A DNA stretch of 64,000 nucleotides, from the NCBI GenBank assembly GCA_951406725.2, contig OX597814.1, positions 64,232,001-64,296,000 of the forward strand, written 5' to 3'. A model generated the notes under the pieces. The model was not told the DNA's origin. It did no database searches and saw only the letters and a list, made by a program, of their open reading frames with translations. Source of the DNA: Octopus vulgaris (taxonomy: Eukaryota). Shown here piece by piece: positions 3,589 to 25,818 of the stretch; the stretch's first letter is position 1, and every line of letters starts with the position of its first letter. Position numbers and translations under genes: made by a program.

Positions 3589-3620
<32 letters not shown>

Positions 3621-4097
3621 CTAGCATTAAAGACCCGTCGTTGCCGAGTCATAGTGCTAGTGCATGTATATATGTGTATATATATGTGTACATATTACAT
3701 GTACATCTATATATATACATCTACACATAAAATTCAAAATATAAAGTTATATCTTAATATCGCTAGTGATAACAATACTCAAAATATATAACAGACTGGA
3801 ATTGTTAGCCCGTCTCTTGTAATTTCGATCAATTGTATCTTGTTCTCCCTCTTGTATAGAAGTGTGGCTACAATCCAGCCTACCTCTACTTTCATTTTAA
3901 ATTTTTTTCCGGGACGTCCTTCGTCCCAGATATAATGGTAAAAATAAAATATTTCCACTTTGCAAGTTCGAGTCGAATACTCCCTTGCACGCTCCGTTGA
4001 CTCGAACCTTGCTTCTGTTGTGGCGAATTTGCCGCCTCTGATTAGATAACTTTCATAGTCGCACCAAGACACTTTTCGAAGGTGCTTTCCTCCATGT

Positions 4098-5574
4098 TGT
4101 TTTATTATTACCCACAAGGGGCGAACATAGATGGGACAATACAATCTGATGATGGGGTCAGACAAACGAATGGGTTTTTACAATAAATCGGATTTAAAAA
4201 TTTTCATGAATTACAATAAATGGTCAGAAATCGAAAGATGGGACAGACCGGAAGACATTACGGGTGGAGTGGGTGCGGGTTTAGCTCGGACCCCACGAGC
4301 CCCGCCTCCCCACTGATACTTTTGGTTGCGCTTGGTATTACATTTATGTTGTATCTTTCACTCGCAACTTTCGTGCTACATCCTTCCATCGTTCTTCATA
4401 CACTCTCCTAGTCAGGCATATTCTCTCCAGCCCTATCTTCCTTTTCAGGTGAAAGATGAAATACTTCATCAAACCAGGGCCGGAGATGAACTTGCCTGAC
4501 TGTAAACCTTTCATTCTCGTCTTCCATATCACCTCTTTCGCAATTGCTACTACAACGAGAAAACGAAACTTACCTTCATTCACGAGGAAATCCGGTGGGT
4601 CAATTTTTGTAATCGACTCAGTCGACAGCTGTACTCTTCGTGTACCTGACAACAGCTGTTCGGCATAAACCCACACCTCAGACACGTCCGAACAATGAAC
4701 AATAGCGTGCGGGACGATTTCCCTATCCCGCCCGCATCTTGGACATATCGGACTGTCTTGGCCACCGTGCCTTGCGAGTTTATCCCGAACAGGTAGAGCT
4801 CCTCTGTAGCATTGCCATGCCAGAGACTTCTGGAAGTTGTCCAGTGTCCTCGGCTCGAACGTACGTCGGAACAGACTGGCCAGCTGATTATCGTCGAGAC
4901 CTAGGGTTTCCCCCAAGGTATCTTCACATTCCGCCTCTACCAACCCTCTATAGAAGAATGTGGTGGAACCCCCACCGCAGGCGTTGCCCGAGCGACGGAA
5001 TAGCAGGAGAGCTTGCGACACTCCGTGTACCAAGTACCAAGTTTCGATCTACGATTCAGCCAGGTTTCCCATCCACCGAAACTAGTGAACTTGGGAAACA
5101 TCAGTTTTGCTAGCGAAGACCACACCCGTTCACCATCCAGGTAGAGCCACAGATGTCTTAACCTCAGCGCATGTCTGCGCATCATCAGCCAAGGCATCCC
5201 TAGCCCACCCTTTAACGGTTGTTGACAGCAAGTAGAGCGTTTCACAAGTGGTTTCCCGCCCTTCCACAAGAAGTAGAAGAGCTGTCTTTCCAACTTGATC
5301 AACCACGAATCAGGGCAAGGAACGACGGAAAGGCGGTAGGTGATAACCGATGCGATAAACACATTGGCCACCTCCGCCCTCCCTTTCAGGGATAGCCACC
5401 GCCAAGACCAGGTCTTGGCTACTGCAGCCACCTTGCTCGTTACCTCGCCCCAATTCTTCTCTATTTGGAGGTCTGGACCGAACCAGACCCCTAGCAGTTT
5501 AATCGGACCCTCCGTCCAACGTCCCACGACGCTGTCAGGAGGCATCGACTTGCCTCTCCAGGTGCCGAGTTGCA
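4098..5574 (-). mobile_element. 5'-truncated Tx1/L1-clade LINE copy (end of RT, zinc finger, 3' UTR)
   Basis: Near-identical to 5591-7074. Flanked by exact 16-bp direct repeat GTGCTTTCCTCCATGT (4082-4097 and 5575-5590). ORF pieces 5574-5010 and 5033-4344 include CPRCGRDREIVPHAIVHC. Confidence 0.93.
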
Positions 5575-5835
5575 GTGCTTTCCTCCATGTTGTTTTATTA
5601 TTACCCACAAGGGGCGAACACAGATGGGACAATACAATCTGATGATGGGGTTAGACAAACGAATGGGTTTTTACAATAAATCGGGTTTAAAAATTTTCAT
5701 GAATAACAATAAATGGACAGAAATCGAGTGATAGGACAGACCGGAAGACATTACGGGTGGAGTGGGTGCGGGTTTAGCTCGGACCCCACGAGCCCCGCCT
5801 CCCACTGATACTTTTGGTTGCACTTGATTACATTT

Positions 5836-8800
5836 ATGTTGTAACTTTCATTCGCAACTTCCGTGCTACATCCTTCCATCGTTCTTCATACGCTCCTAGT
5901 CAGGCATATTCTCTCCAGCCCTATCTTCCTTTTCAGGTGAAAGATGAAATAATTCATCAAACCAGGGCCGGAGATGAACTTGCCCGACTGTAAACCTTTC
6001 ATTCTCGTCTTCCATATCACCTCTTTCGCGATTGCTACTACAACGAGAAAACGAAACTTACCTTCATTCACGAGGAAATCCGGTGGGTCAATTTTTGTAA
6101 TCGACTCAGTCGACAGCTGTACTCTTCGTGTACCTTGACAACAGCTGTTCGGCATAAACCCACACCTCAGACACGTCCGGACAATGAACAATCGCGTGCG
6201 GGACGGTTTCCCTATCCCGCCCGCATCTTGGACATATCGGACTGTCTTGGCCACCGTGCCTTGCGAGTTTATCCCGAACAGGTAGAGCTCCTCTGTAGCA
6301 TTGCCATGCCAGAGACTTCTGGAAGTTGTCCAGTGTCCTTGGCTCGAACGTACGTCGGAACAGACTGGCCAGCTGATTATCGTCGAGACCCAGGGTTTCC
6401 CCCAAGGTATCTTCACATTCCGCCTCTACCAACCCTCTATAGAAGAAAGTGGTGGAACCCCCACCGCAGGCGTTGCCCGAGCGACGGAATAGCAGGAGAG
6501 CCTTGCGACACTCCGTGTACCAAGTACCAAGTTTCGATCTACGATTCAGCCAGGTTTCCCATCCACCGAAACTAGTGAACTTGGGAAACATCAGTTTTGC
6601 TAGCGAAGACCACACCCGTTCACCATCCAGGTAGAGCCACAGATGTCTTAACCTCAGCGCATGTCTGCGCATCATCAGCCAAGGCATCCCTAGCCCACCC
6701 TTTAACGGTTGTTGACAGCAAGTAGAGCGTTTCACAAGTGGTTTCCCGCCCTTCCACAAGAAGTAGAAGAGCTGTCTTTCCAACTTGATCAACCACGAAT
6801 CAGGGCAAGGAACGACGGAAAGGCGGTAGGTGATAACCGATGCGATAAACACATTGGCCACCTCCGCCCTCCCTTTCAGGGATAGCCACCGCCAAGACCA
6901 GGTCTTGGCTACTGCAGCCACCTTGCTCGTTACCTCGCCCCAATTCTTCTCTATTTGGAGGTCTGGACCGAACCAGACCCCTAGCAGTTTAATCGGACCC
7001 TCCGTCCAACGTCCCACGACGCTGTCAGGAGGCATCGACTTGCCTCTCCAGGTGCCGAGTTGCAAGCCGACTGACTTTTCGCGATTAACTTTTGCTCCTG
7101 TCACCGTCTCGTACACCTCTATGGCCTTGCCTACTTTACATAGGTGGTCCATTTCGGTTACGATGATGGTGATGTCATCCGCGTACGCTGACACTGATTT
7201 TCCATTACCTGGCTGTCTCGGGATGCCGCTCAGTTTTCGCAGTAATGGCTCAAGAGCCATCACGTACAAAAGCGGGGAGAGCGGACACCCTTGACGAACC
7301 GAGCGTTTGATTTTGAACGGCTTCGACAAGAAGCCGTTCACCCGAACTACCGAGTCGATGTTATCATAAATTTCGATAATCCACCTGAGGAATCCAAGGC
7401 TCAGCCCGAACTGTGCCAGGGCAGATACCAGGTAACGATGGTCGACCCTATCAAAAGCTTTAGATTGGTCTAAATGGACCAGTGCCCCACCCTTGCCAGA
7501 ATCACTATTAAACCCCTCTATAGTGTACCGCATTAGATGGAGATTATCCTGAATGGATCTGCCCGGAACGGCACATGTCTGTGCCCCTCCGATCAGACCA
7601 TCCGCGACACGCGCCAATCTTTTCGATAACACTTTGGCCAAAATCTTCAACTCTGTGTTTAGCAGAGTGATGGGCCTGAAATTATCAATGCACTCCCCCT
7701 TGCTCGGGTCCTTTCTGACGAGAGTCACTACTCCCCGGCGCACAGATCTGGGTATAAGCCCGTTCTGCTGCCAGTTCGCGTAGACCTCCGCCAGTAGGTG
7801 CCCGAACAAGTCTGGCATACTCTTATATAACTCATAGGGTAGACCATCCAAACCCGGCGCCTTGCCCGCACCGCAGTCCGCCATTGCCTCAACCACCTCC
7901 TCAGGCGTGATTGGCCCTTCACAGCCCTCCGCATCTCGCCCCGATAAGCGCGGCAGACCGTCGAGTAGGTCCGTAAAGGCCCTCCTCCTATCCAGTCCGC
8001 CGCACTCACCGAAAAGCTGAGCGAAGTGCTCCTGAAAGGCCTCACACATCTCCTCGGGTTCGTTTATCAACTCACCTTGTTGGTTCGTCAAAGATCGAAT
8101 CGTGGCATCGTTACCATGCTGAGCTTCCACCACTCGGGCCCATCTCACGGCGTTGATTCCTTCACATCCCATATGACGGATTCTAGCCCTGACAATGCAG
8201 CCCATGTGTTTGGCCTCGAGGTGCTGGTTTAACACCAGTCTCTTGGCCGCCACCTGAGCCGCAGAGCCAGTTTTCATGGCTTCCTCTAATTCCTTAACTA
8301 GAGTAGTTTCCCTTCTAGCCTCTCTAGCCACTACTCCTATGCTATATCTAATAGACTCAAACTTGATGGCTCGTTTGAGGGCGTACCACCATTTGTTATT
8401 AATGATGGTACCAGATAGTGCCCTCTGAATTATATTCCTAATCCGGTCTTTGTACTCCTTAATCGCCAAAAGGGACGTATTAAGTTTCCAGTAACCGGAT
8501 CCTCTATTTTTAACCTTATCTATATCAAGCTTACAAGTGACCATTTTATGATCACTGTAGCTGATCGGGTAAAACTGTGGACACTTAGCTATTTTACTGT
8601 CTACTTTTCTAATTAGTATTCTATCTAGATACGACCTGGAAGATCCGTCGCTGTTTGACCATGTCCACAATGGAGCGTTCGGAAATTCCAGCCTATAAGG
8701 ATCTGCTAGCTCAAAGCGGCTTAGCAGTTCCATGAAGCCACTGTTGCCTTTTCTATCTGGACACGAGCCAACATAATCTACATCCGCTTTGCAAATTGTG

Positions 8801-9228
8801 TTAAAGTCTCCTAGCACCACTAATGAATGCGAAGTACCAAGAAAGTTTTCTAGTTCACGAAAATAATCACTTTGCCCTGTATGGTTGGGTGCGTAAATTG
8901 CAACCAGTCTGATAACTTTACCATTACTGAACGTCAAATCCATGACGACCAGCCTACCTTCTGGATCTGCAAAAATTAACTTTTTCTCAGAAACCCGGTT
9001 TCTTTTTAATAGGACCAACACCCCACTCCCGCCTGTAGGACTGCCAGGAGAGAAAAAACTCTCGTAGCCGTCAAACAGCGGGAGTAGACCTCTTGGCCCC
9101 TCTAACCGGGTTTCTGTAGCAACAATAACATCTAAATTACGCGACCTGATATCATGCAGGAAGCGACCTTGCTTCCAGCCTGCTCCCAGGCCGCGCACAT
9201 TTAAACAACCAACATAAATGTAATCCAT
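5836..9228 (-). CDS. ORF2: APE endonuclease, reverse transcriptase, C-terminal CCHC finger (~1130 aa; frameshifts near 6136 and 5890)
   Basis: EN motifs LNVRGL, ATETRL, IYAPN, GDFN, LDRI, SDH. RT motifs KAPGLDG, FRPITLLN, DQSKAFDRV, RQGCPLSPLLY, YADD, KLLGV. Zinc finger CPRC..HAIVHC. 1040 aa open (9228-6106); true C-terminus inferred from the adjacent truncated copy. Confidence 0.95.
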
Positions 9229-9237
9229 TACTTACCT

Positions 9238-10615
9238 TTATATCAGTGGTTCGGTTTTTTCTTCTTCTTCCTTCTCTTTTTCTGGGCCTCGTGGGGGAGT
9301 CTGACGTAGGCCCTCGAATATATGTGGAGATGTTACATCCAACCTAAGTGGGCCTACGTCATGGAAGAATTCTGACTTTATCCGCCCGTAATCCTTCCGG
9401 TCTATTTTGTAAATTACAAAGTCATTTTTTTTCTCTACTTTCTTCACTTTGGCCATGGCTGCCAACACGTTTCCGAGTCTGCTATTTGATGCTTTTACGG
9501 CCATATATGAGTTCATTGACTCTTTTTTCTTTTTTAAAATTACTCTGGGAGGGGTGGTTTCCGTTTTTCTTTTTTTTTTTCCGATAATTTTTGCCCACCC
9601 CTCCTCATTTATCTTTTCCTCGCTCTTTTTTTCTCCGCCGCTGGTTCTGCTGTTACCATCACCTCCACACCTTCAGTCTTCCCTTCTGGGCCGTCTGACG
9701 CTGCTTCTGGTGACACATTGTCTTCTTTTTCTTTTGGCTTAGGTGCTTCCTGCGGTTTGGGTTGGGGCTGGCATTCCGCCCTTACATGCCCCTTCTTACC
9801 GCAGCCGAAGCACCTCGGCTTTCTGCCCTCTACGAAGACTGTGACTCTTTCATCTTCGCTTATCCTTAGAGTCTCTGGGATCTCTTCCAGGGTTTGTACT
9901 TCTGCTTGTATGGCTATTATTATCTTTTGCCCTTTCCAGAATTCTTCTTCTTCTACGGTGGCCTGGAGGATGTTTATTTTTTCCTCCAGGCCTACCATAA
10001 CTGCTGCCACTAGGACTTCGGCATCCGCTTCTGGCGGGATGTTGTTCATTGTGATCTTGGAAGTTCTCTTGCCTTTATACAGGGGTAGGAGAACAATATC
10101 CTCCGCTTTTATGGGTTCCATGGATAGCTTCTTCGCTACCTCCTCTGACGTGAATCTCACCTCCACTGTGCCGTATTTCTTCCCTCGATTGATATACGTA
10201 ATTTTATCCATTATTGGCTTTAAGCAGTTTTCAATCTTTTTCTCCTCTATTTTTTGGATTGCTCTGTTTGTTATACTGAATGTCTTATAGATTATTCTCC
10301 TATTCGAAATATCCTCCTGTATTTGGGCGTTTGAAGCCACGGTTACTTCCGTGCCCTCTTTTGACACACAGTCCGCATGTTTTCCCAGGTTGTCCACGTT
10401 AATTTTTTTATTTTCTTCCCAGCCACTTCAGCGAATTTTTTTGCTGGAGTTGATGCTGGTACTGGTTTTACCATTTTCTTGGGCGATGCCGCCTCTTTTT
10501 TCTTCGGCGACAGCGCCTCTTTTTTTCTTGGCGACAACGCCTCTTTTTTACTTGGCGACAACGCCGGGTATTCATCCTCGCTCGTCACGGGCGAATAAGT
10601 GATGGGGGACTCCAT
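9238..10615 (-). CDS. ORF1 (Tx1-type gag-like RNA-binding protein, CCHC knuckle), ~460 aa, broken by two 1-nt losses in A7 runs (~10405 and ~9628)
   Basis: Joins ORFs 10624-10343, 10397-9609 and a frame open from ~9670 to 9238. CFGCGKKGHVRAEC knuckle; RRM-like segment GTVEVRF; N-terminal SPxK repeats. Confidence 0.85.
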
Positions 10616-11088
10616 CTTGAACAAATGGCTTTAACAAGCCTTTGGTAATCTAAATTAATTGTAGTTTTCCCCCACTGAGGGGGGAACACCAACGCGAAGT
10701 CTTCGCGCGAAGGTTGACTTCGTCAGTTAGACAACAATGGACAAAAAAAAAAGGTAGACCAACAGTATATAATAACAGAGATAAGTAGTATGAGAGCAAA
10801 AATATATATCAACTTACTAATAACGCAAAAAATTGATTTCCTCCATGTGATTTTATTATTACCCACAAGGGGCGAACATAGAGGGGACAATACAATCGGG
10901 GAACTTAAAATAAGAAAGCGAATGACAAGAAAAGGAAAAAATAAAAGTAAAAATGACATATGAAAGAATATTTACAATGAGATGTAAATGCCCACTCGAT
11001 CCCCGGAATCGAGAGGTTACATTTTCGTCACATATATTTCACAATATTTTTCTTTTTTCTCTTCTTTCTTCTCTCTCTTCTCACAGTT

Positions 11089-12493
11089 CTAAACATATTC
11101 CATGATAGTTTTCAATTCTCTAAAGTCTATCACTGAGCCCTCAGGCAGCCGCTCTCTCACTCGAACACTCGTGTAAAATGTTACACTCTCACCGGCAGCT
11201 CTGAGGAACTCAGCGACTCTTTCTTCGGGGATTAGAGCAGTCTCCTGCCACTGATCGGTCATCCTGTTGACCCACACATGTCCCTCCGTATTACTTGTCA
11301 AATCCTTCATTTCAGGGCAGAAATGGAAGGTTACTAACTTGTAGAAGCAGTAATCTTGTTTCCGTCCTACGTTTTCCTTCATTTTTCTTTTCGGGCTTAT
11401 TTCTTCCTTGTTCTCCTCTCTTTGTTTCTCTCTTTCTCTCTTTTTGCCTTCTTTTCTTTCCTCTTCCTTCTCTTGTCTTTTTGGTTCTTTGTCTGTTCTC
11501 TCTTTCTCTCGTGTTTTATGTTCCTTTTCTTTTTCTTTTGTGTGCCGTCTTTTCTTTTCGTTTGATTCTGATCTCTCTCTTGTTTTTTTCCTGTTGTTTC
11601 TTTTTCCTTTTTTTTTTCCTGACTCTGTTTTGGTTCTATTTCTTTCTTTTCTTTTATTTCTTTTTCCTTCATTGACTTATTATTTCCTTTCTCTTGTTGT
11701 TTTGTTTCCTTTTCTATGTTTTCTTTTTCATTTACCGTGTTCTTCTTTTCTTCGAGTTCCTGCTCGCACTCCGCTACGAATTCGTATAACGGGCACTCTT
11801 TTTTAATGTGCCCCCTTGTCCCGCACAAGTAGCAGTTTGGCTTTCTTCCCTCTACAATTACACTGAGGGTTTTCTCATCTTCAATTTCTATTCTGTAGGG
11901 GAACCTTTCAATGTCCTCTTTTGTGGCCATCAAACACAGTTCTACCCCATATCCTCTCCAGTTTATCACGTTGGACTCCTTAAAGGATTCCACCTCCACT
12001 TCCTCTTCTGCTGCTCCTAGAATAGCTGTTGCCAGCCATTCTGTTTTTACTTCTGGGGGTATATTCGGGATTTTAACCCGGACCCCTCTTCTTCCCTTGT
12101 ATGAGGGCCACATTGTAAATGTTTCCGCTCTTAGTACAGTGGTAGCCAGTGAGGCTGCAATTTCTTCCGTTGCACATCTCACCTCCACCGTACCAAATTT
12201 CTTTCCTCTACTCACGTAGGTCGATTTCCCCATTATGTCTCCCAGACATTTTTCGATTTCTGCTATCTCCACTCTTGCCAGTTTCTTTGTATTTTTGTCT
12301 TGGGTTCTATATGTTACAGTCTTGTTTTCTTTGTCCTCTTTTGCTTTCGCGGGGGGATTAGCTTCACGCTATCACCCTCCCTTTTGAATAGCTTTTCATA
12401 TTCTTTGAGTTTACTCTTCTCAAAGAAAACATCCTTCACGATTATCGACGAATCATTATTTTTCTTTCCCGTGACCCCCGCGTAAGTCGCCAT
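11089..12493 (-). CDS. ORF1-like protein, unit 1 (two frameshifts)
   Basis: MATYAG start at 12493; C6 run at 12351-12356 and an A-run indel near 11535 break the frame; CYLCGTRGHIKKEC knuckle. Confidence 0.8.
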
Positions 12494-12869
12494 GACTAGA
12501 GGGTCAATTCACCTTCTTCGGAAGGTTTCCACACGTGGAGGCAAACGCCTCGCGCGATAATAATCAATTTACACAACAAAATTTCACTGTCTAGTCACAG
12601 ATAACAACACGCATAGATTTCCGACACGTGATTTTATTATTACCCACGAGGGGCGAACATAGAGGGGACAGTACAATCGGGGAACTTAAAATAAGAAAGC
12701 AAATGACAAGAAAAGGAAAAAATAAAAGTAAAAAATGACATATGAAAGAATATTTACAATGAGATGCAAATGCCCACTCGATCCCCGGAATCGAGAGGTT
12801 ACATTTTCGTCACATATAGTTCACAATATTTTCTTTTTTCTCTTCTTTCTTCTTTCTCTTCTCACAGTT

Positions 12870-14272
12870 CTAAACATATTCCATGATAGTTTTCAATTCT
12901 CTAAAGTCTATCACTGAGCCCTCAGGCAGCCGCTCTCTCACTCGAACACTCGTGTAAAATGTTACACTCTCACCGGCAGCTCTGAGGAACTCAGCGACTC
13001 TTTCTTCGGGGATTAGAGCAGTCTCCTGCCACTGATCGGTCATCCTGTCGACCCATATATGTCCCTCCGTACTACTTGTCAATTCTTTCATTTCAGGGCA
13101 GAAATGGAAGGTTACTAACTTGTAGAAGCCGTGATCTTGTTTCCGTCCTACGTTTTCCCTCGTTTTTCTTTTCGGGCTTATTTCTTCCTTGTTCTCCTCT
13201 CTTTGTTTCTCTCTTTCTCTCTTTTTGCCTTCTTTCCTTTCCTCTTCCTTCTCTTGTCTTTTTGGTTCTTTGTCTGTTCTCTCTTTCTCTCGTGTTTTAT
13301 GTTCCTTTTCTTTTTCTTTTTGTGTGCCGTCTTTTCTTTTCGTTTGGTTCTGATCTCTCTCTTGTTTTTTTCCTGTTGTTTCTTTTTCCTTTTTCTTTTC
13401 CTGACTCTGTTTTGGTTCTATTTCTTTCTTTTCTTTTATTTCTTTTTCCTTCATTGACTTATTATTTCCTTTCTCTTGTTGTTTTGTTTCCTTTTCTATG
13501 TTTTCTTTTTCATTTACCGTATTCTTCTTTTCGAGCTCCTGCTCGCACTCCGCTACGAATTCGTATAACGGGCACTCTTTTTTAATGTGCCCCCTTGTCC
13601 CGCACAAGTAGCAGTTTGGCTTTCTTCCCTCTACAATTACACTGAGGGTTTTCTCATCTTCAATTTCTATTCTGTAGGGGAACCTTTCAATGTCCTCTTT
13701 TGTGGCCATCAAACACAGTTCCACCCCATATCCTCTCCAGTTTATCACGTTGGACTCCTTAAAGGATTCCACCTCCACTTCCTCTTCTGCTGCTCCTAGA
13801 ATAGCTGTTGCCAGCCATTCTGTTTTTACTTCTGGGGGTATATTCGGGATTTTAACCCGGACCCCTCTTCTTCCCTTGTATGAGGGCCACATTATAAATG
13901 TTTCCGCTCTTAGTACAGTGGTAGCCAGTGAGGCTGCAATTTCTTCCGTTGCATATCTCACCTCCACCGTACCAAATTTCTTGCCTCTACTCACGTAGGT
14001 CGATTTCCCCATTATGTCTCCCAGACATTTTTCGATTTCTGCTATCTCCACTCTTGCCAGTTTCTTTGTATTTTTGTCCTGGGTTCTATATGTTACAGTC
14101 TTGTTTTCTTTGTCCTCTTTTGCTTTCGCGGGGGGATTAGCTTCACGCTATCACCCTCCCTTTTGAATAGCTTTTCATATTCTTTGAGTTTACTTTTCTC
14201 AAAGAAAACATCCTTCACGATTATCGACGAATCATTATTTTTCTTTCCCGTGACCCCCGCGTAAGTCGCCAT
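12870..14272 (-). CDS. ORF1-like protein, unit 2 (one -1 shift at C6)
   Basis: 393-aa open segment plus upstream MATYAG segment; 1403 nt versus 1404 in intact unit 4. Confidence 0.85.
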
Positions 14273-14648
14273 GACTAGAGGGTCAATTCACCTTCTTCGG
14301 AAGGTTTCCACACGTGGAGGCAAACGCCTCGCGCGATAATAATCAATTTACACAACAAAATTTCACTGTCTAGTCACAAATAACAACACGCATAGATTTC
14401 CGACACGTGATTTTATTATTACCCACGAGGGGCGAACATAGAGGGGACAGTACAATCGGGGAACTTAAAATAAGAAAGCAAATGACAAGAAAAGGAAAAA
14501 ATAAAAGTAAAAAATGACATATGAAAGAATATTTACAATGAGATGCAAATGCCCACTCGATCCCCGGAATCGAGAGGTTACATTTTCGTCACATATAGTT
14601 CACAATATTTTCTTTTTTCTCTTCTTTCTTCTCTCTCTTCTCACAGTT

Positions 14649-16052
14649 CTAAACATATTCCATGATAGTTTTCAATTCTCTAAAGTCTATCACTGAGCCC
14701 TCAGGCAGCCGCTCTCTCACTCGAACACTCGTGTAAAATGTTACACTCTCACCGGCAGCTCTGAGGAACTCAGCGACTCTTTCTTCGGGGATTAGAGCAG
14801 TCTCCTGCCACTGATCGGTCATCCTGTCGACCCATATATGTCCCTCCGTACTACTTGTCAATTCTTTCATTTCAGGGCAGAAATGGAAGGTTACTAACTT
14901 GTAGAAGCCGTGATCTTGTTTCCGTCCTACGTTTTCCCTCGTTTTTCTTTTCGGGCTTATTTCTTCCTTGTTCTCCTCTCTTTGTTTCTCTCTTTCTCTC
15001 TTTTTGCCTTCTTTCCTTTCCTCTTCCTTCTCTTGTCTTTTTGGTTCTTTGTCTGTTCTATCTTTCTCTCGTGTTTTATGTTCCTTTTCTTTTTCTTTTT
15101 GTGTGCCGTCTTTTCTTTTCGTTTGGTTCTGATCTCTCTCTTGTTTTTTTCCTGTTGTTTCTTTTTCCTTTTTCTTTTCCTGACTCTGTTTTGGTTCTAT
15201 TTCTTTCTTTTCTTTTATTTCTTTTTCCTTCATTGACTTATTATTTCCTTTCTCTTGTTGTTTTGTTTCCTTTTCTATGTTTTCTTTTTCATTTACCGTA
15301 TTCTTCTTTTCGAGTTCCTGCTCGCACTCCGCTACGAATTCGTATAACGGGCACTCTTTTTTAATGTGCCCCCTTGTCCCGCACAAGTAGCAGTTTGGCT
15401 TTCTTCCCTCTACAATTACACTGAGGGTTTTCTCGTCTTCAATTTCTATTCTGTAGGGGAACCTTTCAATGTCCTCTTTTGTGGCCATCAAACACAGTTC
15501 CACCCCATATCCTCTCCAGTTTATCACGTTGGACTCCTTAAAGGATTCCACCTCCACTTCCTCTTCTGCTTGCTCCTAGAATAGCTGTTGCCAGCCATTC
15601 TGTTTTTACTTCTGGGGGTATATTCGGGATTTTAACCCGGACCCCTCTTCTTCCCTTGTATGAGGGCCACATTATAAATGTTTCCGCTCTTAGTACAGTG
15701 GTAGCCAGTGAGGCTGCAATTTCTTCCGTTGCATATCTCACCTCCACCGTACCAAATTTCTTGCCTCTACTCACGTAGGTCGATTTCCCCATTATGTCTC
15801 CCAGACATTTTTCGATTTCTGCTATCTCCACTCTTGCCAGTTTCTTTGTATTTTTGTCCTGGGTTCTATATGTTACAGTCTTGTTTTCTTTGTCCTCTTT
15901 TGCTTTCGCGGGGGGATTAGCTTCACGCTATCACCCTCCCTTTTGAATAGCTTTTCATATTCTTTGAGTTTACTTTTCTCAAAGAAAACATCCTTCACGA
16001 TTATCGACGAATCATTATTTTTCTTTCCCGTGACCCCCGCGTAAGTCGCCAT
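14649..16052 (-). CDS. ORF1-like protein, unit 3 (C6 shift plus 1-nt insertion near 15570)
   Basis: Split ORFs 15831-15538 and 15557-14649. Confidence 0.8.
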
Positions 16053-16428
16053 GACTAGAGGGTCAATTCACCTTCTTCGGAAGGTTTCCACACGTGGAGG
16101 CAAACGCCTCGCGCGATAATAATCAATTTACACAACAAAATTTCACTGTCTAGTCACAAATAACAACACGCATAGATTTCCGACACGTGATTTTATTATT
16201 ACCCACGAGGGGCGAACATAGAGGGGACAGTACAATCGGGGAACTTAAAATAAGAAAGCAAATGACAAGAAAAGGAAAAAATAAAAGTAAAAAATGACAT
16301 ATGAAAGAATATTTACAATGAGATGCAAATGCCCACTCGATCCCCGGAATCGAGAGGTTACATTTTCGTCACATATAGTTCACAATATTTTCTTTTTTCT
16401 CTTCTTTCTTCTCTCTCTTCTCACAGTT

Positions 16429-17832
16429 CTAAACATATTCCATGATAGTTTTCAATTCTCTAAAGTCTATCACTGAGCCCTCAGGCAGCCGCTCTCTCAC
16501 TCGAACACTCGTGTAAAATGTTACACTCTCACCGGCAGCTCTGAGGAACTCAGCGACTCTTTCTTCGGGGATTAGAGCAGTCTCCTGCCACTGATCGGTC
16601 ATCCTGTCGACCCATATATGTCCCTCCGTACTACTTGTCAATTCTTTCATTTCAGGGCAGAAATGGAAGGTTACTAACTTGTAGAAGCCGTGATCTTGTT
16701 TCCGTCCTACGTTTTCCCTCGTTTTTCTTTTCGGGCTTATTTCTTCCTTGTTCTCCTCTCTTTGTTTCTCTCTTTCTCTCTTTTTGCCTTCTTTCCTTTC
16801 CTCTTCCTTCTCTTGTCTTTTTGGTTCTTTGTCTGTTCTATCTTTCTCTCGTGTTTTATGTTCCTTTTCTTTTTCTTTTTGTGTGCCGTCTTTTCTTTTC
16901 GTTTGGTTCTGATCTCTCTCTTGTTTTTTTCCTGTTGTTTCTTTTTCCTTTTTCTTTTCCTGACTCTGTTTTGGTTCTATTTCTTTCTTTTCTTTTATTT
17001 CTTTTTCCTTCATTGACTTATTATTTCCTTTCTCTTGTTGTTTTGTTTCCTTTTCTATGTTTTCTTTTTCATTTACCGTATTCTTCTTTTCGAGTTCCTG
17101 CTCGCACTCCGCTACGAATTCGTATAACGGGCACTCTTTTTTAATGTGCCCCCTTGTCCCGCACAAGTAGCAGTTTGGCTTTCTTCCCTCTACAATTACA
17201 CTGAGGGTTTTCTCGTCTTCAATTTCTATTCTGTAGGGGAACCTTTCAATGTCCTCTTTTGTGGCCATCAAACACAGTTCTACCCCATATCCTCTCCAGT
17301 TTATCACGTTGGACTCCTTAAAGGATTCCACCTCCACTTCCTCTTCTGCTGCTCCTAGAATAGCTGTTGCCAGCCATTCTGTTTTTACTTCTGGGGGTAT
17401 ATTCGGGATTTTAACCCGGACCCCTCTTCTTCCCTTGTATGAGGGCCACATTATAAATGTTTCCGCTCTTAGTACAGTGGTAGCCAGTGAGGCTGCAATT
17501 TCTTCCGTTGCACATCTCACCTCCACCGTACCAAATTTCTTTCCTCTACTCACGTAGGTCGATTTCCCCATTATGTCTCCCAGACATTTTTCGATTTCTG
17601 CTATCTCCACTCTTGCCAGTTTCTTTGTATTTTTGTCTTGGGTTCTATATGTTACAGTCTTGTTTTCTTTGTCCTCTTTTGCTTTCGCGGGGGGGATTAG
17701 CTTCACGCTATCACCCTCCCTTTTGAATAGCTTTTCATATTCTTTGAGTTTACTTTTCTCAAAGAAAACATCCTTCACGATTATCGACGAATCATTATTT
17801 TTCTTTCCCGTGACCCCCGCGTAAGTCGCCAT
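16429..17832 (-). CDS. ORF1-like protein, unit 4, intact 467 aa (RRM-like region, CCHC knuckle, K/E-rich linker, C-terminal domain)
   Basis: Uninterrupted ATG to stop with C7 run. Homologous to the autonomous ORF1: STYVSRGKKFGTVEVR vs ITYINRGKKYGTVEVR; NIPPE in both; VEGRKPNCYLCGTRGH vs VEGRKPRCFGCGKKGH. Confidence 0.92.
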   Translation of the reverse strand: MATYAGVTGKKNNDSSIIVKDVFFEKSKLKEYEKLFKREGDSVKLIPPAKAKEDKENKTVTYRTQDKNTKKLARVEIAEIEKCLGDIMGKSTYVSRGKKFGTVEVRCATEEIAASLATTVLRAETFIMWPSYKGRRGVRVKIPNIPPEVKTEWLATAILGAAEEEVEVESFKESNVINWRGYGVELCLMATKEDIERFPYRIEIEDEKTLSVIVEGRKPNCYLCGTRGHIKKECPLYEFVAECEQELEKKNTVNEKENIEKETKQQEKGNNKSMKEKEIKEKKEIEPKQSQEKKKEKETTGKKQERDQNQTKRKDGTQKEKEKEHKTREKDRTDKEPKRQEKEEERKEGKKREREKQREENKEEISPKRKTRENVGRKQDHGFYKLVTFHFCPEMKELTSSTEGHIWVDRMTDQWQETALIPEERVAEFLRAAGESVTFYTSVRVRERLPEGSVIDFRELKTIMEYV

Positions 17833-18211
17833 GACTAGAGGGTCAATTCACCTTCTTCGGAAGGTTTCCACACGTGGAGGCAAACGCCTCGCGCGATAAT
17901 AATCACTTTACACAACAAAATTTCAACGTCTAATCACAGATAACAACACGCAAATTGATTTCCGACACGTGATTTTATTACTACCCACAAGGGGCGAACA
18001 TAGAGGGGACAATACAATCGAGGAACTTAAAATAAGAAAGCGAAATGACAAGAAAGGGAAAAAATAAAAGTAAAAAATGACATATGAAAGAATATTTACA
18101 ATGAGATGCAAATGCCCACTCGATCCCCGAAATCGAGAGGTTACATTTTCGTCACATATATTTCACAATAATTTTCTTTTTTCTCTTCTTTCTTCTCTCT
18201 CTCTCACAATT

Positions 18212-19614
18212 TTATACGTATTCCATAATACCTTTCAAGTCTCTAAAGTCAATCACTGAGCCCTCAGGCAGCCGCTCTTTCATTCGAACACCCGTGTAAA
18301 AAATTACACTCTCTCCGGCAGCTCTGAGGAACTCAGCGACTCTTTCTTCGGGGATCAGAGCAGTCTCCTGCCACTGATCAGTCATCCTGTCGACCCACAC
18401 ATGTCCCTCCGTACTACATGTCAATTCCTTCATTTCAGGGCAGAAATGGAAGGTTACTAACTTGTAGAAGCCGTGATCTTGTTTCCGTCCTACGTTTTCC
18501 CTCGTTTTTCTTTTCGGGCTTATTTCTTCCTTGTTCTCCTCTCTTTGTTTCTCTCTTTCTCTCTTTTTGCCTTCTTTTCTTTCCTCTTCCTTCTCTTGTC
18601 TTTTTGGTTCTTTGTCTGTTCTCTCTTTCTCTCGTGTTTTATGTTCCTTTTCTTTTTCTTTTTGTGTGCCGTCTTTTCTTTTCGTTTGGTTCTGATCTCT
18701 CTCTTGTTTTTTTCCTGTTGTTTCTTTTTCCTTTTTCTTTTCCTGACTCTGTTTTGGTTCTATTTCTTTCTTTTCTTTTATTTCTTTTTCCTTCATTGAC
18801 TTATTATTTCCTTTCTCTTGTTGTTTTGTTTCCTTTTCTATGTTTTCTTTTTCATTTACCGTATTCTTCTTTTCGAGCTCCTGCTCGCACTCCGCTACGA
18901 ATTCGTATAACGGGCACTCTTTTTTAATGTGCCCCCTTGTCCCGCACAAGTAGCAGTTTGGCTTTCTTCCCTCTACAATTACACTGAGGGTTTTCTCATC
19001 TTCAATTTCTATTCTGTAGGGGAACCTTTCAATGTCCTCTTTTGTGGCCATCAAACACAGTTCCACCCCATATCCTCTCCAGTTTATCACGTTGGACTCC
19101 TTAAAGGATTCCACCTCCACTTCCTCTTCTGCTGCTCCTAGAATAGCTGTTGCCAGCCATTCTGTTTTTACTTCTGGGGGTATATTCGGGATTTTAACCC
19201 GGACCCCTCTTCTTCCCTTGTATGAGGGCCACATTATAAATGTTTCCGCTCTTAGTACAGTGGTAGCCAGTGAGGCTGCAATTTCTTCCGTTGCATATCT
19301 CACCTCCACCGTACCAAATTTCTTGCCTCTACTCACGTAGGTCGATTTCCCCATTATGTCTCCCAGACATTTTTCGATTTCTGCTATCTCCACTCTTGCC
19401 AGTTTCTTTGTATTTTTTTCTTGGGTTCTATATGTTACAGTCTTGTTTTCTTTGTCCTCTTTTGCTTTCGCGGGGGGATTAGCTTCACGCTATCACCCTC
19501 CCTTTTGAATAGTTTTTCATATTCTTTGAGTTTACTCTTCTCAAAGAAAACCTCCTTCACGATTATTGCCGAATCATTATTTTTCTTTCCCGTGACCCCC
19601 GCGTAAGTCGCCAT
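18212..19614 (-). CDS. ORF1-like protein, unit 5 (C6 shift; mosaic of the two subtypes)
   Basis: 393-aa open segment; N-terminal part like unit 2, C-terminus LKGIMEYV like unit 6. Confidence 0.85.
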
Positions 19615-19991
19615 GACTAGAGGGTCAATTCACCTTCTTCGGAAGGTTTCCAAACGTGGAGGCAAACGCCTCGCGCGATATTAATCACTTTACACAACAA
19701 AATTTCAACGTCTAATCACAGATAACAACACGCATAGATTTCCGACACGTGATTTTATTACTACCCACAAGGGGCGAACATAGAGGGGACAATACAATCG
19801 GGGAACTTAAAATAAGAAAGCGAAATGACAAGAAAAGGAAAAAATAAAAATAAAAATGACAAATGAAAGAATATTTACAATGAGATGCAAATGCCCACTC
19901 GATCCCCGGAATCGAGAGGTTACATTTTCGTCACATATATTTCACAATAATTTTCTTTTTTCTCTTCTTTCTTCTCTCTCTTCTCACAATT

Positions 19992-21390
19992 TTATACGTA
20001 TTCCATAATACCTTTCAAGTCTCTAAAGTCAATCACTGAGCCCTCAGGCAGCCGCTCTTTCATTCGAACACCCGTGTAAAAAATTACACTCTCTCCAGCT
20101 GCTCTGAGGAACTCAGCGACTCTTTCTTCGGGGATCAGAGCAGTCTCCTGCCACTGATCAGTCATCCTGTTGACCCACACATGTCCCTCCGTACTACATG
20201 TCAATTCCTTCATTTCGGGGCTGAAATGGAAGGTTATTAACTTGTAGTAATCTTGTTTCCGTCCTACGTTTTCTCTCGTTTTTCTTTTCGGGCTTACTTC
20301 TTCCTTGTTCTCCTCTCTTTGTTTCTCTCTTTCTCTCTTTTTGCCTTCTTTTCTTTCTTCTTCCTTCTCTTGTCTTTTTGGTTCTTTGTCTGTTCTATCT
20401 TTCTCTCGTGTTTTATGTTCCTTTTCTTTTTCTTTTTGTGTACCGTCTTTTCTTTTCGTTTGGTTCTGATCTCTCTCTTGTTTTTTTCCTGTTGTTTCTT
20501 TTTCCTTTTTCTTTTCCTGACTCTGTTTTGGTTCTATTTCTTTCTTTTCTTTTATTTCTTTTTCCTTCGTTGACTTATTATTTCCTTTCTCTTGTTGTTT
20601 TGTCTCCTTTTCTATGTTTTCTTTTTCATTTACCGTATTCTTCTTTTCTTCAATTTCCTTCTCATACTCCGCTATGAATTCGTATAACGGGCACTCTTTT
20701 TTAATGTGCCCCCTTGTCCCGCACAAGTAGCAGTTTGGCTTTCTTCCCTCTACAATTACACTGAGGGTTTTCTCGTCTTCGATTTCTATTCTATAGGGGA
20801 ACCTTTCAATGTCCTCTTTTGTGGCCATCAAACACAGTTCTACCCCATATCCTCTCCAATTTACTGCATTGGACTCCTTAAAGGATTCCACCTCCACTTC
20901 CTCTTCTGCTGCTCCTAGAATAGCTGTTGCCAGCCATTCTGTTTTTACTTCTGGGGGTATATTCGGGATTTTAACCGGACCCCTCTTCTTCCCTTGTATG
21001 AGGGCCACATTATAAATGTTTCCGCTCTTAGAACAGTGGTAGCCAGTGAGGCTGCAATTTCTTCCGTTGCACATCTCACCTCCACCGTACCAAATTTTTT
21101 TCCTCTACTCACGTAGGTCGATTTATCCATTATGTCTCCCAGACATTTTTCGATCTCTGCTATCTCCACTCTTGCCAGTTTCTTTGTACTTTTGTCCTGG
21201 GTTCTATACGTTACAGTTTTGTTTTCTTTGTCCTCTTTTGCTTTCGCGGGGGGATTAGCTTCACGCTATCACCCTCCCTTTTGAATAGTTTTTCATATTC
21301 TTTGAGTTTACTCTTCTCAAAGAAAACATCCTTCACGATTATTGCCGAATCATTATTATTCTTTCCCGTGACCCCCGCGTAAGTCGCCAT
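19992..21390 (-). CDS. ORF1-like protein, unit 6 (C6 shift plus 1-nt deletion near 20975)
   Basis: Split ORFs 21169-20945 and 21074-19992. Confidence 0.8.
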
Positions 21391-21769
21391 GACTAGAGGG
21401 TCAATTCACCTTCTTCGGAAGGTTTCCAAACGTGGAGGCAAATGCCTCGCGCGATATTAATCACTTTACACAACAAAATTTCAACGTCTAATCACAGATA
21501 ACAACACGTATAGATTTCCGACACGTGATTTTATTACTACCCACAAGGGGCGAACATAGAGGGGACAATACAATCGGGGAACTTAAAATAAGAAAGCGAA
21601 ATGACAAGAAGGGAAAAAAATAAAAATAAAAATGACAAATGAAAGAATATTTACAATGAGATGCAAATGCCCACTCGATCCCCGGAATCGAGAGGTTACA
21701 TTTTCGTCACATATAGTTCACAATTTTTTTCCTCTTTTTCTCTTCTTTCTTCTCTCTCCTCTCACAATC

Positions 21770-23169
21770 TCACACGTATTCCATAATACTTTTCAAGTCT
21801 CTAAAGTCAATCACTGAGCCCTCAGGCAGCCGCTCTTTCACTCGAACACCCGTGTAAAAAATTACACTCTCTCCAGCTGCTCTGAGGAACTCAGCGACTC
21901 TTTCTTCGGGGATCAGAGCAGTCTCCTGCCACTGATCAGTCATCCTGTTGACCCACACATGTCCCTCCATACTACATGTCAATTCCTTCATTTCGGGGCT
22001 GAAATGGAAGGTTATTAACTTGTAGTAATCTTGTTTCCGTCCTACGTTTTCTCTCGTTTTTCTTTTCGGGCTTACTTCTTCCTTGTTCTCCTCTCTTTGT
22101 TTCTCTCTTTCTCTCTTTTTGCCTTCTTTTCTTTCTTCTTCCTTCTCTTGTCTTTTTGGTTCTTTGTCTGTTCTATCTTTCTCTCGTGTTTTATGTTCCT
22201 TTTCTTTTTCTTTTTGTGTGCCGTCTTTTCTTTTCGTTTGGTTCTGTTCTCTCTCTTGTTTTTTTCCTGTTGTTTCTTTTTCCTTTTTCTTTTCCTGACT
22301 CTGTTTTGGTTCTATTTCTTTCTTTTCTTTTATTTCTTTTTCCTTCGTTGACTTATTATTTCCTTTCTCTTGTTGTTTTGTCTCCTTTTCTATGTTTTCT
22401 TTTTCATTTACCGTATTCTTCTTTTCTTCATTTTCCTTCTCATACTCCGCCATGAATTCATATAACGGGCACTCTTTTTTAATGTGCCCCCTTGTCCCGC
22501 ACAAGTAGCAGTTTGGCTTTCTTCCCTCTACAATTACACTGAGGGTTTTCTCGTCTTCGATTTCTATTCTATAGGGGAACCTTTCAATGTCCTCTTTTGT
22601 GGCCATCAAACACAGTTCTACCCCATATCCTCTCCAATTTACTGCATTGGACTCCTTAAAGGATTCCACCTCCACTTCCTCTTCTGCTGCTCCTAGAATA
22701 GCTGTTGCCAGCCATTCTGTTTTTACTTCTGGGGGTATATTCGGGATTTTAACCCGGACCCCTCTTCTTCCCTTGTATGAGGGCCACATTATAAATGATT
22801 CCGCTCTTAGAACAGTGGTAGCCAGTGAGGCTGCAATTTCTTCCGTTGCACATCTCACCTCCACCGTACCAAATTTTTTTCCTCTACTCACGTAGGTCGA
22901 TTTATCCATTATGTCTCCCAGACATTTTTCGATCTCTGCTATCTCCACTCTTGCCAGTTTCTTTGTACTTTTGTCCTGGGTTCTATACGTTACAGTTTTG
23001 TTTTCCTTGTCCTCCTTTGCTTTCGCGGGGGGATTAGCTTCACGCTATCACCCTCCCTTTTGAATAGCTTTTCATATTCTTTGATTTTACTTTTCTCAAA
23101 GAAAACATCCTTCACGATTATTGCCGAATCATTATTATTCTTTCCCGTGACCCCCGCGTAAGTCGCCAT
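21770..23169 (-). CDS. ORF1-like protein, unit 7 (C6 shift)
   Basis: 392-aa open segment plus upstream MATYAG segment. Confidence 0.85.
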
Positions 23170-23548
23170 GACTAGAGGGTCAATTCACCTTCTTCTGAAG
23201 GTTTCCAAACGTGGAGGCAAACGCCTCGCGCGATATTAATCACTTTACACAACAAAATTTCACTGTCTAATCACAGATAACAACACGCATAGATTTCCGA
23301 CACGTGATTTTATTATTACCCACGAGGGGCGAACATAGAGGGGACAATACAATCGGGGAACTTAAAATAAGAAAGCAAATGACAAGAAAAGGAAAAAATA
23401 AAAGTAAAAAATGACATATGAAAGAATATTTACAATGAGATGCAAATGCCCACTCGATCCCCGGAATCGAGAGGTTACATTTTCGTCACATATAGTTCAC
23501 AATTTTTTTCTCTTTTTTCTCTTCTTTCTTCTCTCTCCTCTCACAATC

Positions 23549-24950
23549 TCACACGTATTCCATAATACTTTTCAAGTCTCTAAAGTCAATCACTGAGCCC
23601 TCAGGCAGCCGCTCTTTCACTCGAACACCCGTGTAAAAAATTACACTCTCTCCAGCTGCTCTGAGGAACTCAGCGACTCTTTCTTCGGGGATCAGAGCAG
23701 TCTCCTGCCACTGATCAGTCATCCTGTTGACCCACACATGTCCCTCCATACTACATGTCAATTCCTTCATTTCGGGGCTGAAATGGAAGGTTATTAACTT
23801 GTAGTAATCTTGTTTCCGTCCTACGTTTTCTCTCGTTTTTCTTTTCGGGCTTACTTCTTCCTTGTTCTCCTCTCTTTGTTTCTCTCTTTCTCTCTTTTTG
23901 CCTTCTTTTCTTTCTTCTTCCTTCTCTTGTCTTTTTGGTTCTTTGTCTGTTCTCTCTTTCTCTCGTGTTTTATGTTCCTTTTCTTTTTCTTTTTGTGTGC
24001 CGTCTTTTCTTTTCGTTTGGTTCTGTTCTCTCTCTTGTTTTTTTCCTGTTGTTTCTTTTTCCTTTTTCTTTTCCTGACTCTGTTTTGGTTCTATTTCTTT
24101 CTTTTCTTTTATTTCTTTTTCCTTCGTTGACTTATTATTTCCTTTCTCTTGTTGTTTTGTCTCCTTTTCTATGTTTTCTTTTTCATTTACCGTATTCTTC
24201 TTTTCTTCATTTTCCTTCTCATACTCCGCTATGAATTCATATAACGGGCACTCTTTTTTAATGTGCCCCCTTGTCCCGCACAAGTAGCAGTTTGGCTTTC
24301 TTCCCTCTACAATTACACTGAGGGTTTTCTCGTCTTCGATTTCTATTCTATAGGGGAACCTTTCAATGTCCTCTTTTGTGGCCATCAAACACAGTTCTAC
24401 CCCATATCCTCTCCAATTTACTGCGTTGGACTCCTTAAAGGATTCCACCTCCACTTCCTCTTCTGCTGCTCCTAGAATAGCTGTTGCCAGCCATTCTGTT
24501 TTTACTTCTGGGGGTATATTCGGGATTTTAACCCGGACCCCTCTTCTTCCCTTGTATGAGGGCCACATTATAAATGATTCCGCTCTTAGAACAGTGGTAG
24601 CCAGTGAGGCTGCAATTTCTTCCGTTGCACATCTCACCTCCACCGTACCAAATTTTTTTCCTCTACTCACGTAGGTCGATTTATCCATTATGTCTCCCAG
24701 ACATTTTTCGATCTCTGCTATCTCCACTCTTGCCAGTTTCTTTGTACTTTTGTCCTGGGTTCTATACGTTACAGTTTTGTTTTCCTTTGTCCTCCTTTGC
24801 TTTCGCGGGGGGGATTAGCTTCACGCTATCACCCTCCCTTTTGAATAGCTTTTCATATTCTTTGATTTTACTTTTCTCAAAGAAAACATCCTTCACGATT
24901 ATTGCCGAATCATTATTATTCTTTCCCGTGACCCCCGCGTAAGTCGCCAT
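23549..24950 (-). CDS. ORF1-like protein, unit 8 (C7 but 1-nt insertion near 24787)
   Basis: ORFs 24950-24762 and 24727-23549. Confidence 0.85.
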
Positions 24951-25818
24951 GACTAGAGGGTCAATTCACCTTCTTCTGAAGGTTTCCAAACGTGGAGGCA
25001 AACGCCTCGCGCGATATTAATCACTTTACACAACAAAATTTCACTGTCTAATCACAGATAACAACACGCATAGATTTCCGACACGTGTTCAAATCTTTTT
25101 TCTCTTCATTGTATACTTTATAGACAATAGGCTTTTCTTTAATTTAATTTTTTATTATCCATCTGGACTATTCCATTTCTGCACGCTAATTTTATTTTTA
25201 ATTTATTCTCATTCATGTGAAACCACTTATTCAAGTTCAAGTCATTGATTCAATTTTATACCAATTGCTATTTTTACTTTTGTTATGTTACGATTATATC
25301 ATACTTTAATTTGATTGTAATTATTACTTACTACATATAATTCAATTGTTATTATTATTTTTATTGTTAAAGTGAAAGTATCTGACATAAAATAGAGAAA
25401 TGTTTTTGTATCACTTTTAACACGTAATACTGATATAGTGGAGAAGATATGATATTGCTATGGGCTCGCTCTAGGCAAGAAGTTGAACTTTTTTTCCCAT
25501 GAAACTACATGGACCCTAAGTAAGGCATGTGTAAAATTTGAATGAAATTGGTTGAGTAGTTCTCAAGTTTTAGGGAAACACACAGACAGACAAACAGACA
25601 GACAGATAGGCAGACAGACACACATTCTCAGTTTTATATATATAAAGATATATATATATATATATAATAAAAATAAGCATCAATAATGTCTCCTCTTCTT
25701 GTTCCTTATTTTGATTATAATTATAATCACCCCACAGATTTTTATGGATAACACCATACAGAATTCTGGTGCATCTAAATTAAGTACCATATTCATTTGA
25801 ATCTAAATTTTTGCTGAA

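What the first reader, a model, noticed from the sequence alone, without database searches (positions are those of the whole stretch)
12618..25086. Each ORF1-only unit appears to carry its own variant of the target site at its 5' end
Seen: all eight units end (+ strand right side) in TTTCCGACACGT, at 12618, 14397, 16177, 17959, 19739, 21515, 23294 and 25075. This differs at 3 of 12 positions from the host-side TTTCCTCCATGT left of unit 1, so it is not a simple TSD. The outermost junction at 25075 also has the variant. A similar motif (GAAGGTTTCCACACGTG, 12521-12537) lies ~90 nt inside the 5' UTR and resembles the left host flank GAAGGTGCTTTCCTCCATGT. Inference: units import a fresh landing pad so arrays self-extend, or they arrive as read-through multimers whose 5' end anneals to and overwrites the target, as in R2 5' junction formation.
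Basis: partly seen in the sequence, partly recalled or inferred. Interest (0 to 1): 0.72.

Follow-up and report, generated by a model that had tools for sequence, protein, structure and literature searches.

The report
Half-LINE inherits its own target copy
In an octopus genome, a stripped-down jumping gene carries its own altered copy of the DNA site it inserts into, likely because its RNA starts in the host DNA just upstream, and likely pastes that copy over the host's version when it lands.

Summary
TTTCCGACACGT ends all 8 ORF1-only units, whereas the host flank and both LINE copies read TTTCCTCCATGT. Other host copies show the host-type letters at 2 of the 3 diagnostic positions (15 contigs, one run). 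Unit 5' ends keep the variant 12-mer next to four other flanks. So the 12-mer travels with the element. A TATAAA lies 32 nt upstream of the base where two foreign flanks break off, which suggests an RNA that starts in the host and carries the old duplication. The eight copies are not eight independent imports: variants on the two sides of a junction travel together (r 0.94, against 0.07-0.09 within a unit), so copying crossed junctions. Re-use of the 12-mer as a target is not shown. A large subfamily diverges before the 12-mer and is untested. Earwig R2 has a uniform, diverged target copy at its 5' end (PMC3774820). This scan has already noted such ORF1-only stacks on other DNA of this genome. 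Verdict: new variant of a known kind.

The parts
3621..4097 (-). 3' half of a non-coding Helitron-like host element (CTAG end followed by T, short hairpin before it)
   Evidence: sequence; Helitron end features recalled
4082..4097 (-). host target, 16 bp (GTGCTTTCCTCCATGT on +)
4098..5574 (-). 5'-truncated LINE copy A1, 98% identical to the 3' end of A2
5575..5590 (-). exact 16-bp target-site duplication made by truncated A1
5591..10848 (-). full-length LINE A2: APE-RT-zinc finger ORF2 (6106-9228, 1040 aa to its stop), ORF1 open over 9609-10427
10837..10848 (-). 5' end of A2: host-version 12-mer, only 12 of the 16 target letters; its continuation is alike to the unit 5' end
   Evidence: A2 against U4 beyond the first 7 nt: 2 of 2000 shuffles
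10849..25086 (-). eight head-to-tail ORF1-only units of 1776-1782 bp (right ends 12629, 14408, 16188, 17970, 19750, 21526, 23305, 25086); they share a 47-nt 3' tail with the LINE; only U4 has an unbroken 467-aa frame
12618..12629 (-). unit-version 12-mer of U1 (the same at 14397, 16177, 17959, 19739, 21515, 23294)
12521..12544 (.). inner motif in the 5' UTR: 12-mer-like match around CACGTG (U1-U4 only), overlapping a 10-of-12 match to the host 12-mer on the opposite strand
17906..18425 (.). tract of the right-hand (U7/U8) sequence type that crosses the U4/U5 junction
25075..25086 (-). outermost unit-version 12-mer, at the junction with host DNA
25087..25090 (-). four host letters also found between the 12-mer and two foreign flanks; 25090 is the inferred RNA start
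   Evidence: the start is inferred
25117..25122 (-). TATAAA in the host element, first T 32 nt upstream of 25090
   Evidence: promoter function untested
25087..25648 (-). 5' half of the Helitron-like host (TC start preceded by A); very deep in four public runs

Best explanation
The 12-mer at the 5' end of each ORF1-only unit is an element-borne, diverged copy of the target site, likely carried in an RNA that starts about four bases upstream in host DNA and likely pasted over the fresh duplication when the cDNA end pairs with the cut target. Shown: the LINE cut leaves a 16-bp duplication of the host version when the copy is truncated; full-length units have their own version beside several different flanks; copying in this array crossed junctions. 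Inferred: a host TATA box drives the outermost copy, so the RNA begins near 25090 and includes the parent's duplication. The LINE enzyme binds the shared 47-nt tail and primes on the host site. The finished cDNA pairs with the target overhang at 9 of 12 letters, the unmatched host end is trimmed, and the element's letters are fixed. A junction variant is thus inherited, as proposed for R2. The array then grew or was homogenised by blocks that span junctions (unequal crossing-over, or cDNA from read-through RNA pairing with a resident unit).
For:: truncated A1 has a perfect 16-bp duplication; full-length A2 matches only 12 letters; all 8 units carry the variant; 15 contigs of run X16 give the loose-end consensus AATGGTGATTTCCTCCAAGTGTTCAAATCT before 25094, host-type at 2 of 3 diagnostic letters and unit-type at none; 9 of 18 loose-end rows (13 contigs, all 4 runs) run through the 12-mer and go on as another unit's 3' end (7 contigs), the LINE's 3' end (1), a different host copy (1) or two foreign flanks that both break off at 25090 (2 contigs each, each flank in 2 runs); no substitution is listed in 25075-25090. 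TATAAA 32 nt upstream of 25090 (3 TATAAA in 564 nt of host, roughly a 2% chance for a 4-base window, my arithmetic); cross-junction r 0.94 (12 of 5040 permutations) against 0.07 and 0.09 within units. PMC3774820: earwig R2 precedent and annealing model.
Against: The empty-site evidence is one consensus row, from one run, with agreement 0.68 and median length 17; the third diagnostic letter is neither version. Simple repair of a mismatched duplex should sometimes leave the host version, and none is listed (contigs drop rare forms; only 32 of 146 pieces were printed). The four shared host letters could be part of the enzyme's target preference, or the foreign flanks could be other elements inserted at that base. 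Internal units have no TATA in the 45 nt upstream (0 of 8 junctions). A deep contig in X3 (depth 803) leaves the reference at 25067, and 12 of 32 printed pieces end there, so many family members are untested for the 12-mer. No RNA start was measured.
Confidence: 0.6

Rival explanations
1. Landing-pad growth: the imported 12-mer next to the host promoter is itself cut and used as the next target, so the chain grows at its promoter end, one unit at a time. This can hold together with the best explanation.
For: Seven internal junctions join a unit 3' end directly to the unit-version 12-mer. In X11 a LINE 3' end is joined to it. Only the promoter-side site keeps its upstream host DNA after an insertion.
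Against: All three junctions in the window where a 3' end meets non-unit DNA have the host version (4086, 5579, 10837). Growth at the other end with overwriting gives the same picture. Cross-junction linkage is not expected from independent monomers.
Confidence: 0.2
2. Fixed 5' end: the 12-mer is simply the first letters of the element, an old captured target now part of an internal promoter shared with the LINE. It is joined to the target through the common GGAAA, without a borrowed promoter.
For: The 5' ends of A2 and U4 stay alike beyond the 12-mer. Both versions keep a CANNTG word across the junction (sequence; E-box reading recalled). A second 12-mer-like motif lies in the UTR.
Against: It needs the seven host letters upstream of GGAAA to be removed at every insertion. 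It explains the shared break at 25090 only through target preference.
Confidence: 0.13
3. Local accident: one founding junction had or gained three changes, and DNA-level tandem duplication (or assembly mosaics) copied it eight times; nothing is carried by the element.
For: Neighbouring units are most alike, U5 is a mosaic and blocks cross junctions. Six of 8 units share one reading-frame break.
Against: The same 12-mer stands beside four other flanks in other samples. This would need all of them to descend from this one locus.
Confidence: 0.07

Closest known systems
R2 of earwig (Forficula auricularia), also sow bug and horseshoe crab; Eickbush et al. 2013, PMC3774820 (passages read)
   Same: [quoted passage not shown] The authors propose that a junction variant enters the RNA and is propagated, and that the cDNA anneals to the target.
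   Different: R2 targets 28S rDNA and frees its RNA by an HDV-like ribozyme (its restriction-like endonuclease is recalled). Here the partner has an APE endonuclease and makes true 16-bp duplications, the carrier is ORF1-only, the target is a Helitron-like repeat, and no ribozyme was found.
Tx1-Mar and SINEU-2B_Crp of crocodilians; Tx1 in Tx1D of Xenopus; Kojima 2015, PMC4494074 (passages and parts 3-4 of 5 read)
   Same: Tx1-clade LINEs and passengers that insert at fixed positions inside another transposon, often in tandem. SINEU-2B has a 42-nt 5' extension weakly like its Mariner target, with transcription from the flank proposed.
   Different: Those passengers are non-coding and snRNA-derived, and the hosts named are Mariner, piggyBac, Harbinger and LTR elements. 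The passages read describe no diverged duplication that replaces the fresh one.
HAL1 (half-L1); PMC5753468 (passages)
   Same: Non-autonomous LINE derivative that encodes only ORF1p.
   Different: Mammalian L1 derivative; no fixed target or stacking in the passages read. The unit ORF1 is only 34% identical to the neighbouring LINE's ORF1, so it is not a recent deletion product of it.
HeT-A of Drosophila telomeres; PMC5537684 (passages)
   Same: Head-to-tail arrays in which sequence upstream of a copy helps drive its transcription (ORF1-only structure recalled).
   Different: HeT-A sits at chromosome ends, has oligo-A tails and uses the 3' UTR of the upstream copy. Here the array is internal, ends are tailless, and the candidate promoter is in the host repeat.

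Membership tests
Tx1/L1-group non-LTR retrotransposon (partner LINE) | ORF2 with APE endonuclease, RT and C-terminal zinc finger, no RNase H (architecture recalled) | tested here: met
   PF03372, PF00078, PF13966; no RNase H family among the 4 listed at E 0.01
Tx1 clade | RT tree places it with reference Tx1 elements | not tested
   no reference set on hand; 1 of 25 hits carries a name ('Transposon TX1 uncharacterized 149 kDa protein', 26% identity), which is not a placement
Tx1 clade, transposon-targeting families | repeated insertion at one position of another transposon | tested here: met
   10 copies at one site in the window; one further host copy with a unit at the same base (X3). Genome-wide share not testable: no genome held
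ORF1-only non-autonomous LINE (HAL1 type) | ORF1 homologue, no RT, 3' tail shared with a LINE | tested here: met
   34% identity over 206 aa, E 1e-45; 47-nt tail, 91-96% identical
HAL1 proper | derived from mammalian L1 | tested here: not met
   named relatives are Octopus proteins (6 of 8 hits); zinc-knuckle ORF1
R2-type inherited 5' junction | uniform 5' junction holding a diverged copy of downstream target sequence | tested here: met
   8 of 8 units and 13 contigs of 4 runs; untested for the subfamily that leaves the reference at 25067
R2-type inherited 5' junction | RNA 5' end lies in upstream target sequence | not testable with these tools
   only contigs were offered; they cannot show starts
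R2 | HDV-like ribozyme at the 5' end | tested here: inconclusive
   no Rfam match at gathering score in the window; 5' ends fold no better than shuffles, z -1.58 to 1.12; pseudoknots not modelled
R2 | 28S rDNA target and restriction-like endonuclease | tested here: not met
   no rRNA in the window; APE domain
Helitron (host) | 5' TC, 3' CTAG with hairpin, inserted between A and T (features recalled) | tested here: met
   sequence at 3620-3650 and 25647-25649; no autonomous partner linked

The most novel reading that the evidence does not exclude
A heritable, self-renewing address. The element lands at a host transcription start, borrows the promoter, writes its own version of the target into every new locus through its RNA, and the partner enzyme re-uses that version. 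Each passenger family would then carry and evolve its own target site, and only the newest, promoter-side copy of a chain would be the source of the next.
Probability: 0.2. Interest if true: 0.75.

Novelty: new variant of a known kind. Interest (0 to 1): 0.47.

Why it matters
How the 5' end of a LINE cDNA is joined to the target is the least understood step of retrotransposition. Here a natural three-letter label separates letters that come from the RNA from letters that come from the target, in an APE-type system that otherwise makes ordinary duplications. Counting junction types in an assembly would test directly whether cDNA annealing overwrites a fresh duplication and at which end chains grow. 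It also means that in such families the apparent duplication is no record of the local target. The behaviour itself has a printed precedent in R2, which limits the surprise.

Tried and rejected
No whole genome is held for this window, so loci could not be counted. Rfam: 0 matches at gathering score; ARAGORN: 0 genes; so no evidence for an RNA-gene target or a known ribozyme. Folding of four 5' ends: none clearly better than shuffles (12, 22, 173 and 53 of 200). Metagenome contigs: 0 matches to a host-element pattern, and 0 of 115 candidate stretches confirmed for ORF2. No RNA holder listed on record; this says nothing on expression. Inner motif as a copy of the host flank: rejected as not beyond chance. 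A recent deletion of the neighbouring LINE as origin of the units: rejected (34% ORF1 identity; the DNA is alike only in the 47-nt tail, a 61-nt ORF1 patch and the 5' end). One-directional editing clusters: none seen by eye among the private changes; not counted. Summed contig depths were not used as copy numbers. Look-up of earlier findings by sequence: none. Six answered paper searches listed no description of this octopus family's 5' junction. The one octopus repeat paper opened (PMC13282606, part 1 of 3 and passages) lists 13 recently active L1-Tx1 families and has no occurrence of 'target' or 'ORF1' in its main text; its supplements were not seen and may hold the family.

Full report
Layout. 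All elements lie on the minus strand inside a split, non-coding repeat of about 1.04 kb with Helitron-type ends (3621-4097 and 25087-25648; end features recalled). From left to right on the plus strand: a 5'-truncated LINE copy A1 (4098-5574), a full-length LINE A2 (5591-10848) whose ORF2 has APE, RT and zf-RVT domains, and eight ORF1-only units of 1776-1782 bp (10849-25086). Units and LINE share a 47-nt 3' tail, and their ORF1 proteins are 34% identical over 206 residues. Six of 8 relatives of the unit protein carry the name Octopus vulgaris, at 79-100% identity. No genome was held.

Observation. The 12-mer TTTCCGACACGT is at all eight stated places and nowhere else at up to one mismatch (shuffle mean 0.22). 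TTTCCTCCATGT stands at 4086, 5579 and 10837. A1 is flanked by an exact 16-bp duplication (4082-4097, 5575-5590), so the enzyme makes ordinary duplications when a copy is truncated. Full-length A2 matches only 12 of these 16 letters and continues with letters that it shares with unit 4 (2 of 2000 shuffles beyond the first 7 nt). The inner motif is intact in 4 of 8 units. It resembles the unit 12-mer (1 of 2000 shuffles in U1) but not, beyond chance, the host flank (359 of 2000).

Empty site. I laid contigs of 4 of the 24 listed runs (X3, X5, X11, X16; four studies) on 23306-25700. The host part is far deeper than the unit, as expected of a common repeat. Among 24 printed loose-end rows (1241 not shown), one covers the site: 15 contigs of X16, consensus AATGGTGATTTCCTCCAAGTGTTCAAATCT, agreement 0.68, median length 17. 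This agrees with the left flank 4078-4097 at 16 of 20 letters and runs straight into the right flank. At the three diagnostic letters it has the host letter twice and a third letter once. It is one row from one run, but it points the same way as the window's own left flank.

Other loci. On 24990-25098, 146 records were laid. Nine of 18 loose-end rows, 13 contigs from all four runs, pass through the 12-mer. They continue as another unit's 3' end (7 contigs), the LINE's 3' end (1 contig, a junction absent from the window), a host copy that differs from this one (1), or one of two foreign flanks (2 contigs each; one flank in X3 and X11, the other in X5 and X16). No substitution is listed within 25075-25090 and no loose end at 25079-25084. 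So the variant stands beside four flanks that this locus lacks. Limits: contigs drop rare forms, 32 of 146 pieces were printed, and X5 and X16 were read to about 80% and 76%. Against generality: a contig of depth 803 in X3 leaves the reference at 25067, and 12 of the 32 printed pieces end there. A large subfamily is therefore untested.

A likely RNA start. Both foreign flanks break off at 25090, four host letters beyond the 12-mer. After reading earlier notes of this scan on insertion behind TATA boxes, I looked upstream and found TATAAA with its first T 32 nt from 25090. Three such words lie in 564 nt of host, so the spacing has a rough 2% chance. The spacing fits a TATA promoter (about 30-32 nt, recalled). 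An RNA starting there would hold four host letters, the parent's duplication and the unit. The four letters could also be part of the enzyme's target preference, and the foreign flanks could be other elements inserted at that base. No RNA start could be read.

How the array grew. Neighbours are most alike (U2/U3 4 differences, U7/U8 14, U1-U4 against U6-U8 73-92), and U5 is a mosaic. Differences in the 70 columns on either side of a junction correlate at r 0.94 (12 of 5040 permutations), against 0.07 and 0.09 for the two ends of one unit. At 120 columns the values are 0.74 against 0.04 and 0.32, and at 200 columns 0.67 against 0.16 and 0.45. The sites are few and not independent, but a tract from 17906 to 18425 plainly crosses the U4/U5 junction. 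Copying therefore ignored unit borders at least once, by unequal crossing-over, by cDNA from read-through RNA pairing with a resident unit, or by a mosaic assembly. The eight 12-mers count as far fewer than eight events.

Mechanism. Shown: 16-bp duplication for a truncated copy, a constant variant for full-length units at several flanks, junction-spanning blocks. Inferred: transcription from the host promoter, priming at the host site by the partner enzyme, pairing of the cDNA end with the target overhang at 9 of 12 letters, and fixation of the element's letters. I put carriage by the element at about 0.85 and the whole chain at 0.6. Re-use of the variant as a target is open. The three junctions in the window where a 3' end meets non-unit DNA all have the host version, and the X11 junction fits either order.

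Comparison. In PMC3774820 (passages) all earwig R2 5' junctions have a 22-bp copy of downstream target with three substitutions, and the authors propose propagation of junction variants through the RNA. This element works like that but is not an R2: it has an APE partner, no rDNA target and no ribozyme found. PMC4494074 (passages, parts 3-4 of 5) describes Tx1 families and passengers that target other transposons, and a SINEU-2B 5' extension like its target. HAL1 (PMC5753468, passages) and HeT-A (PMC5537684, passages) are the ORF1-only parallels. Tx1 membership rests on architecture and habit; no RT tree was made. Six answered searches listed no account of an inherited target variant in an ORF1-only APE-type element. 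The library lacks most subscription papers, and I read no supplements.

Verdict. The feature is real and element-borne, a new variant of a known kind. The wider system of ORF1-only stacks has been noted by this scan on other DNA of this genome (unchecked notes). Interest 0.47.

Noticed in passing
window 58320-58700: A SINE-like repeat holds a stretch (58469-58509) 86% alike to the LINE/unit 3' tail, and the tail bin is far deeper than the unit body in all four runs: a common short repeat likely shares this tail. The SINE label is recalled.
   Followed up: partly
window about 44300-46680: Decayed Helitron Rep/Pif1 helicase coding region (PF21530 hit at 45885-46580), ending in a hairpin and CTAG near 46680.
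   Followed up: no
window 29070-30700 (+) and about 2088-2170: Older decayed LINE fragments, 63-71% alike to A2.
   Followed up: no
window 12533-12544 and the same place in all 8 units: A 10-of-12 match to the host 12-mer on the opposite strand overlaps the inner motif, forming an imperfect palindrome around CACGTG in U1-U4; it may be a protein-binding site.
   Followed up: partly
window 25067 (run X3): A deep contig continues with ACGTGGGTA instead of the reference. The letters can be read as a diverged 5' end, or as the complement of a word in the 3' tail. Unexplained.
   Followed up: no
units U1-U3, U5-U8: Seven of 8 units have a frame break within about 60 codons of the start, six at the same single-letter run; this is either a shared mutation or a long-read error.
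   Followed up: partly
window 10837-10851 and consensus: A2 and U4 have TGA before TTTCC where this locus's host has TGC; the consensus of other host copies also has TGA, so the full-length LINE may carry a target copy from another host locus too.
   Followed up: partly
flank seen in X5 and X16: The 30 printed letters end in TATTT, which on the element strand could be the tail of a TATA word about 33 nt upstream of the break; the print stops too early to tell.
   Followed up: no
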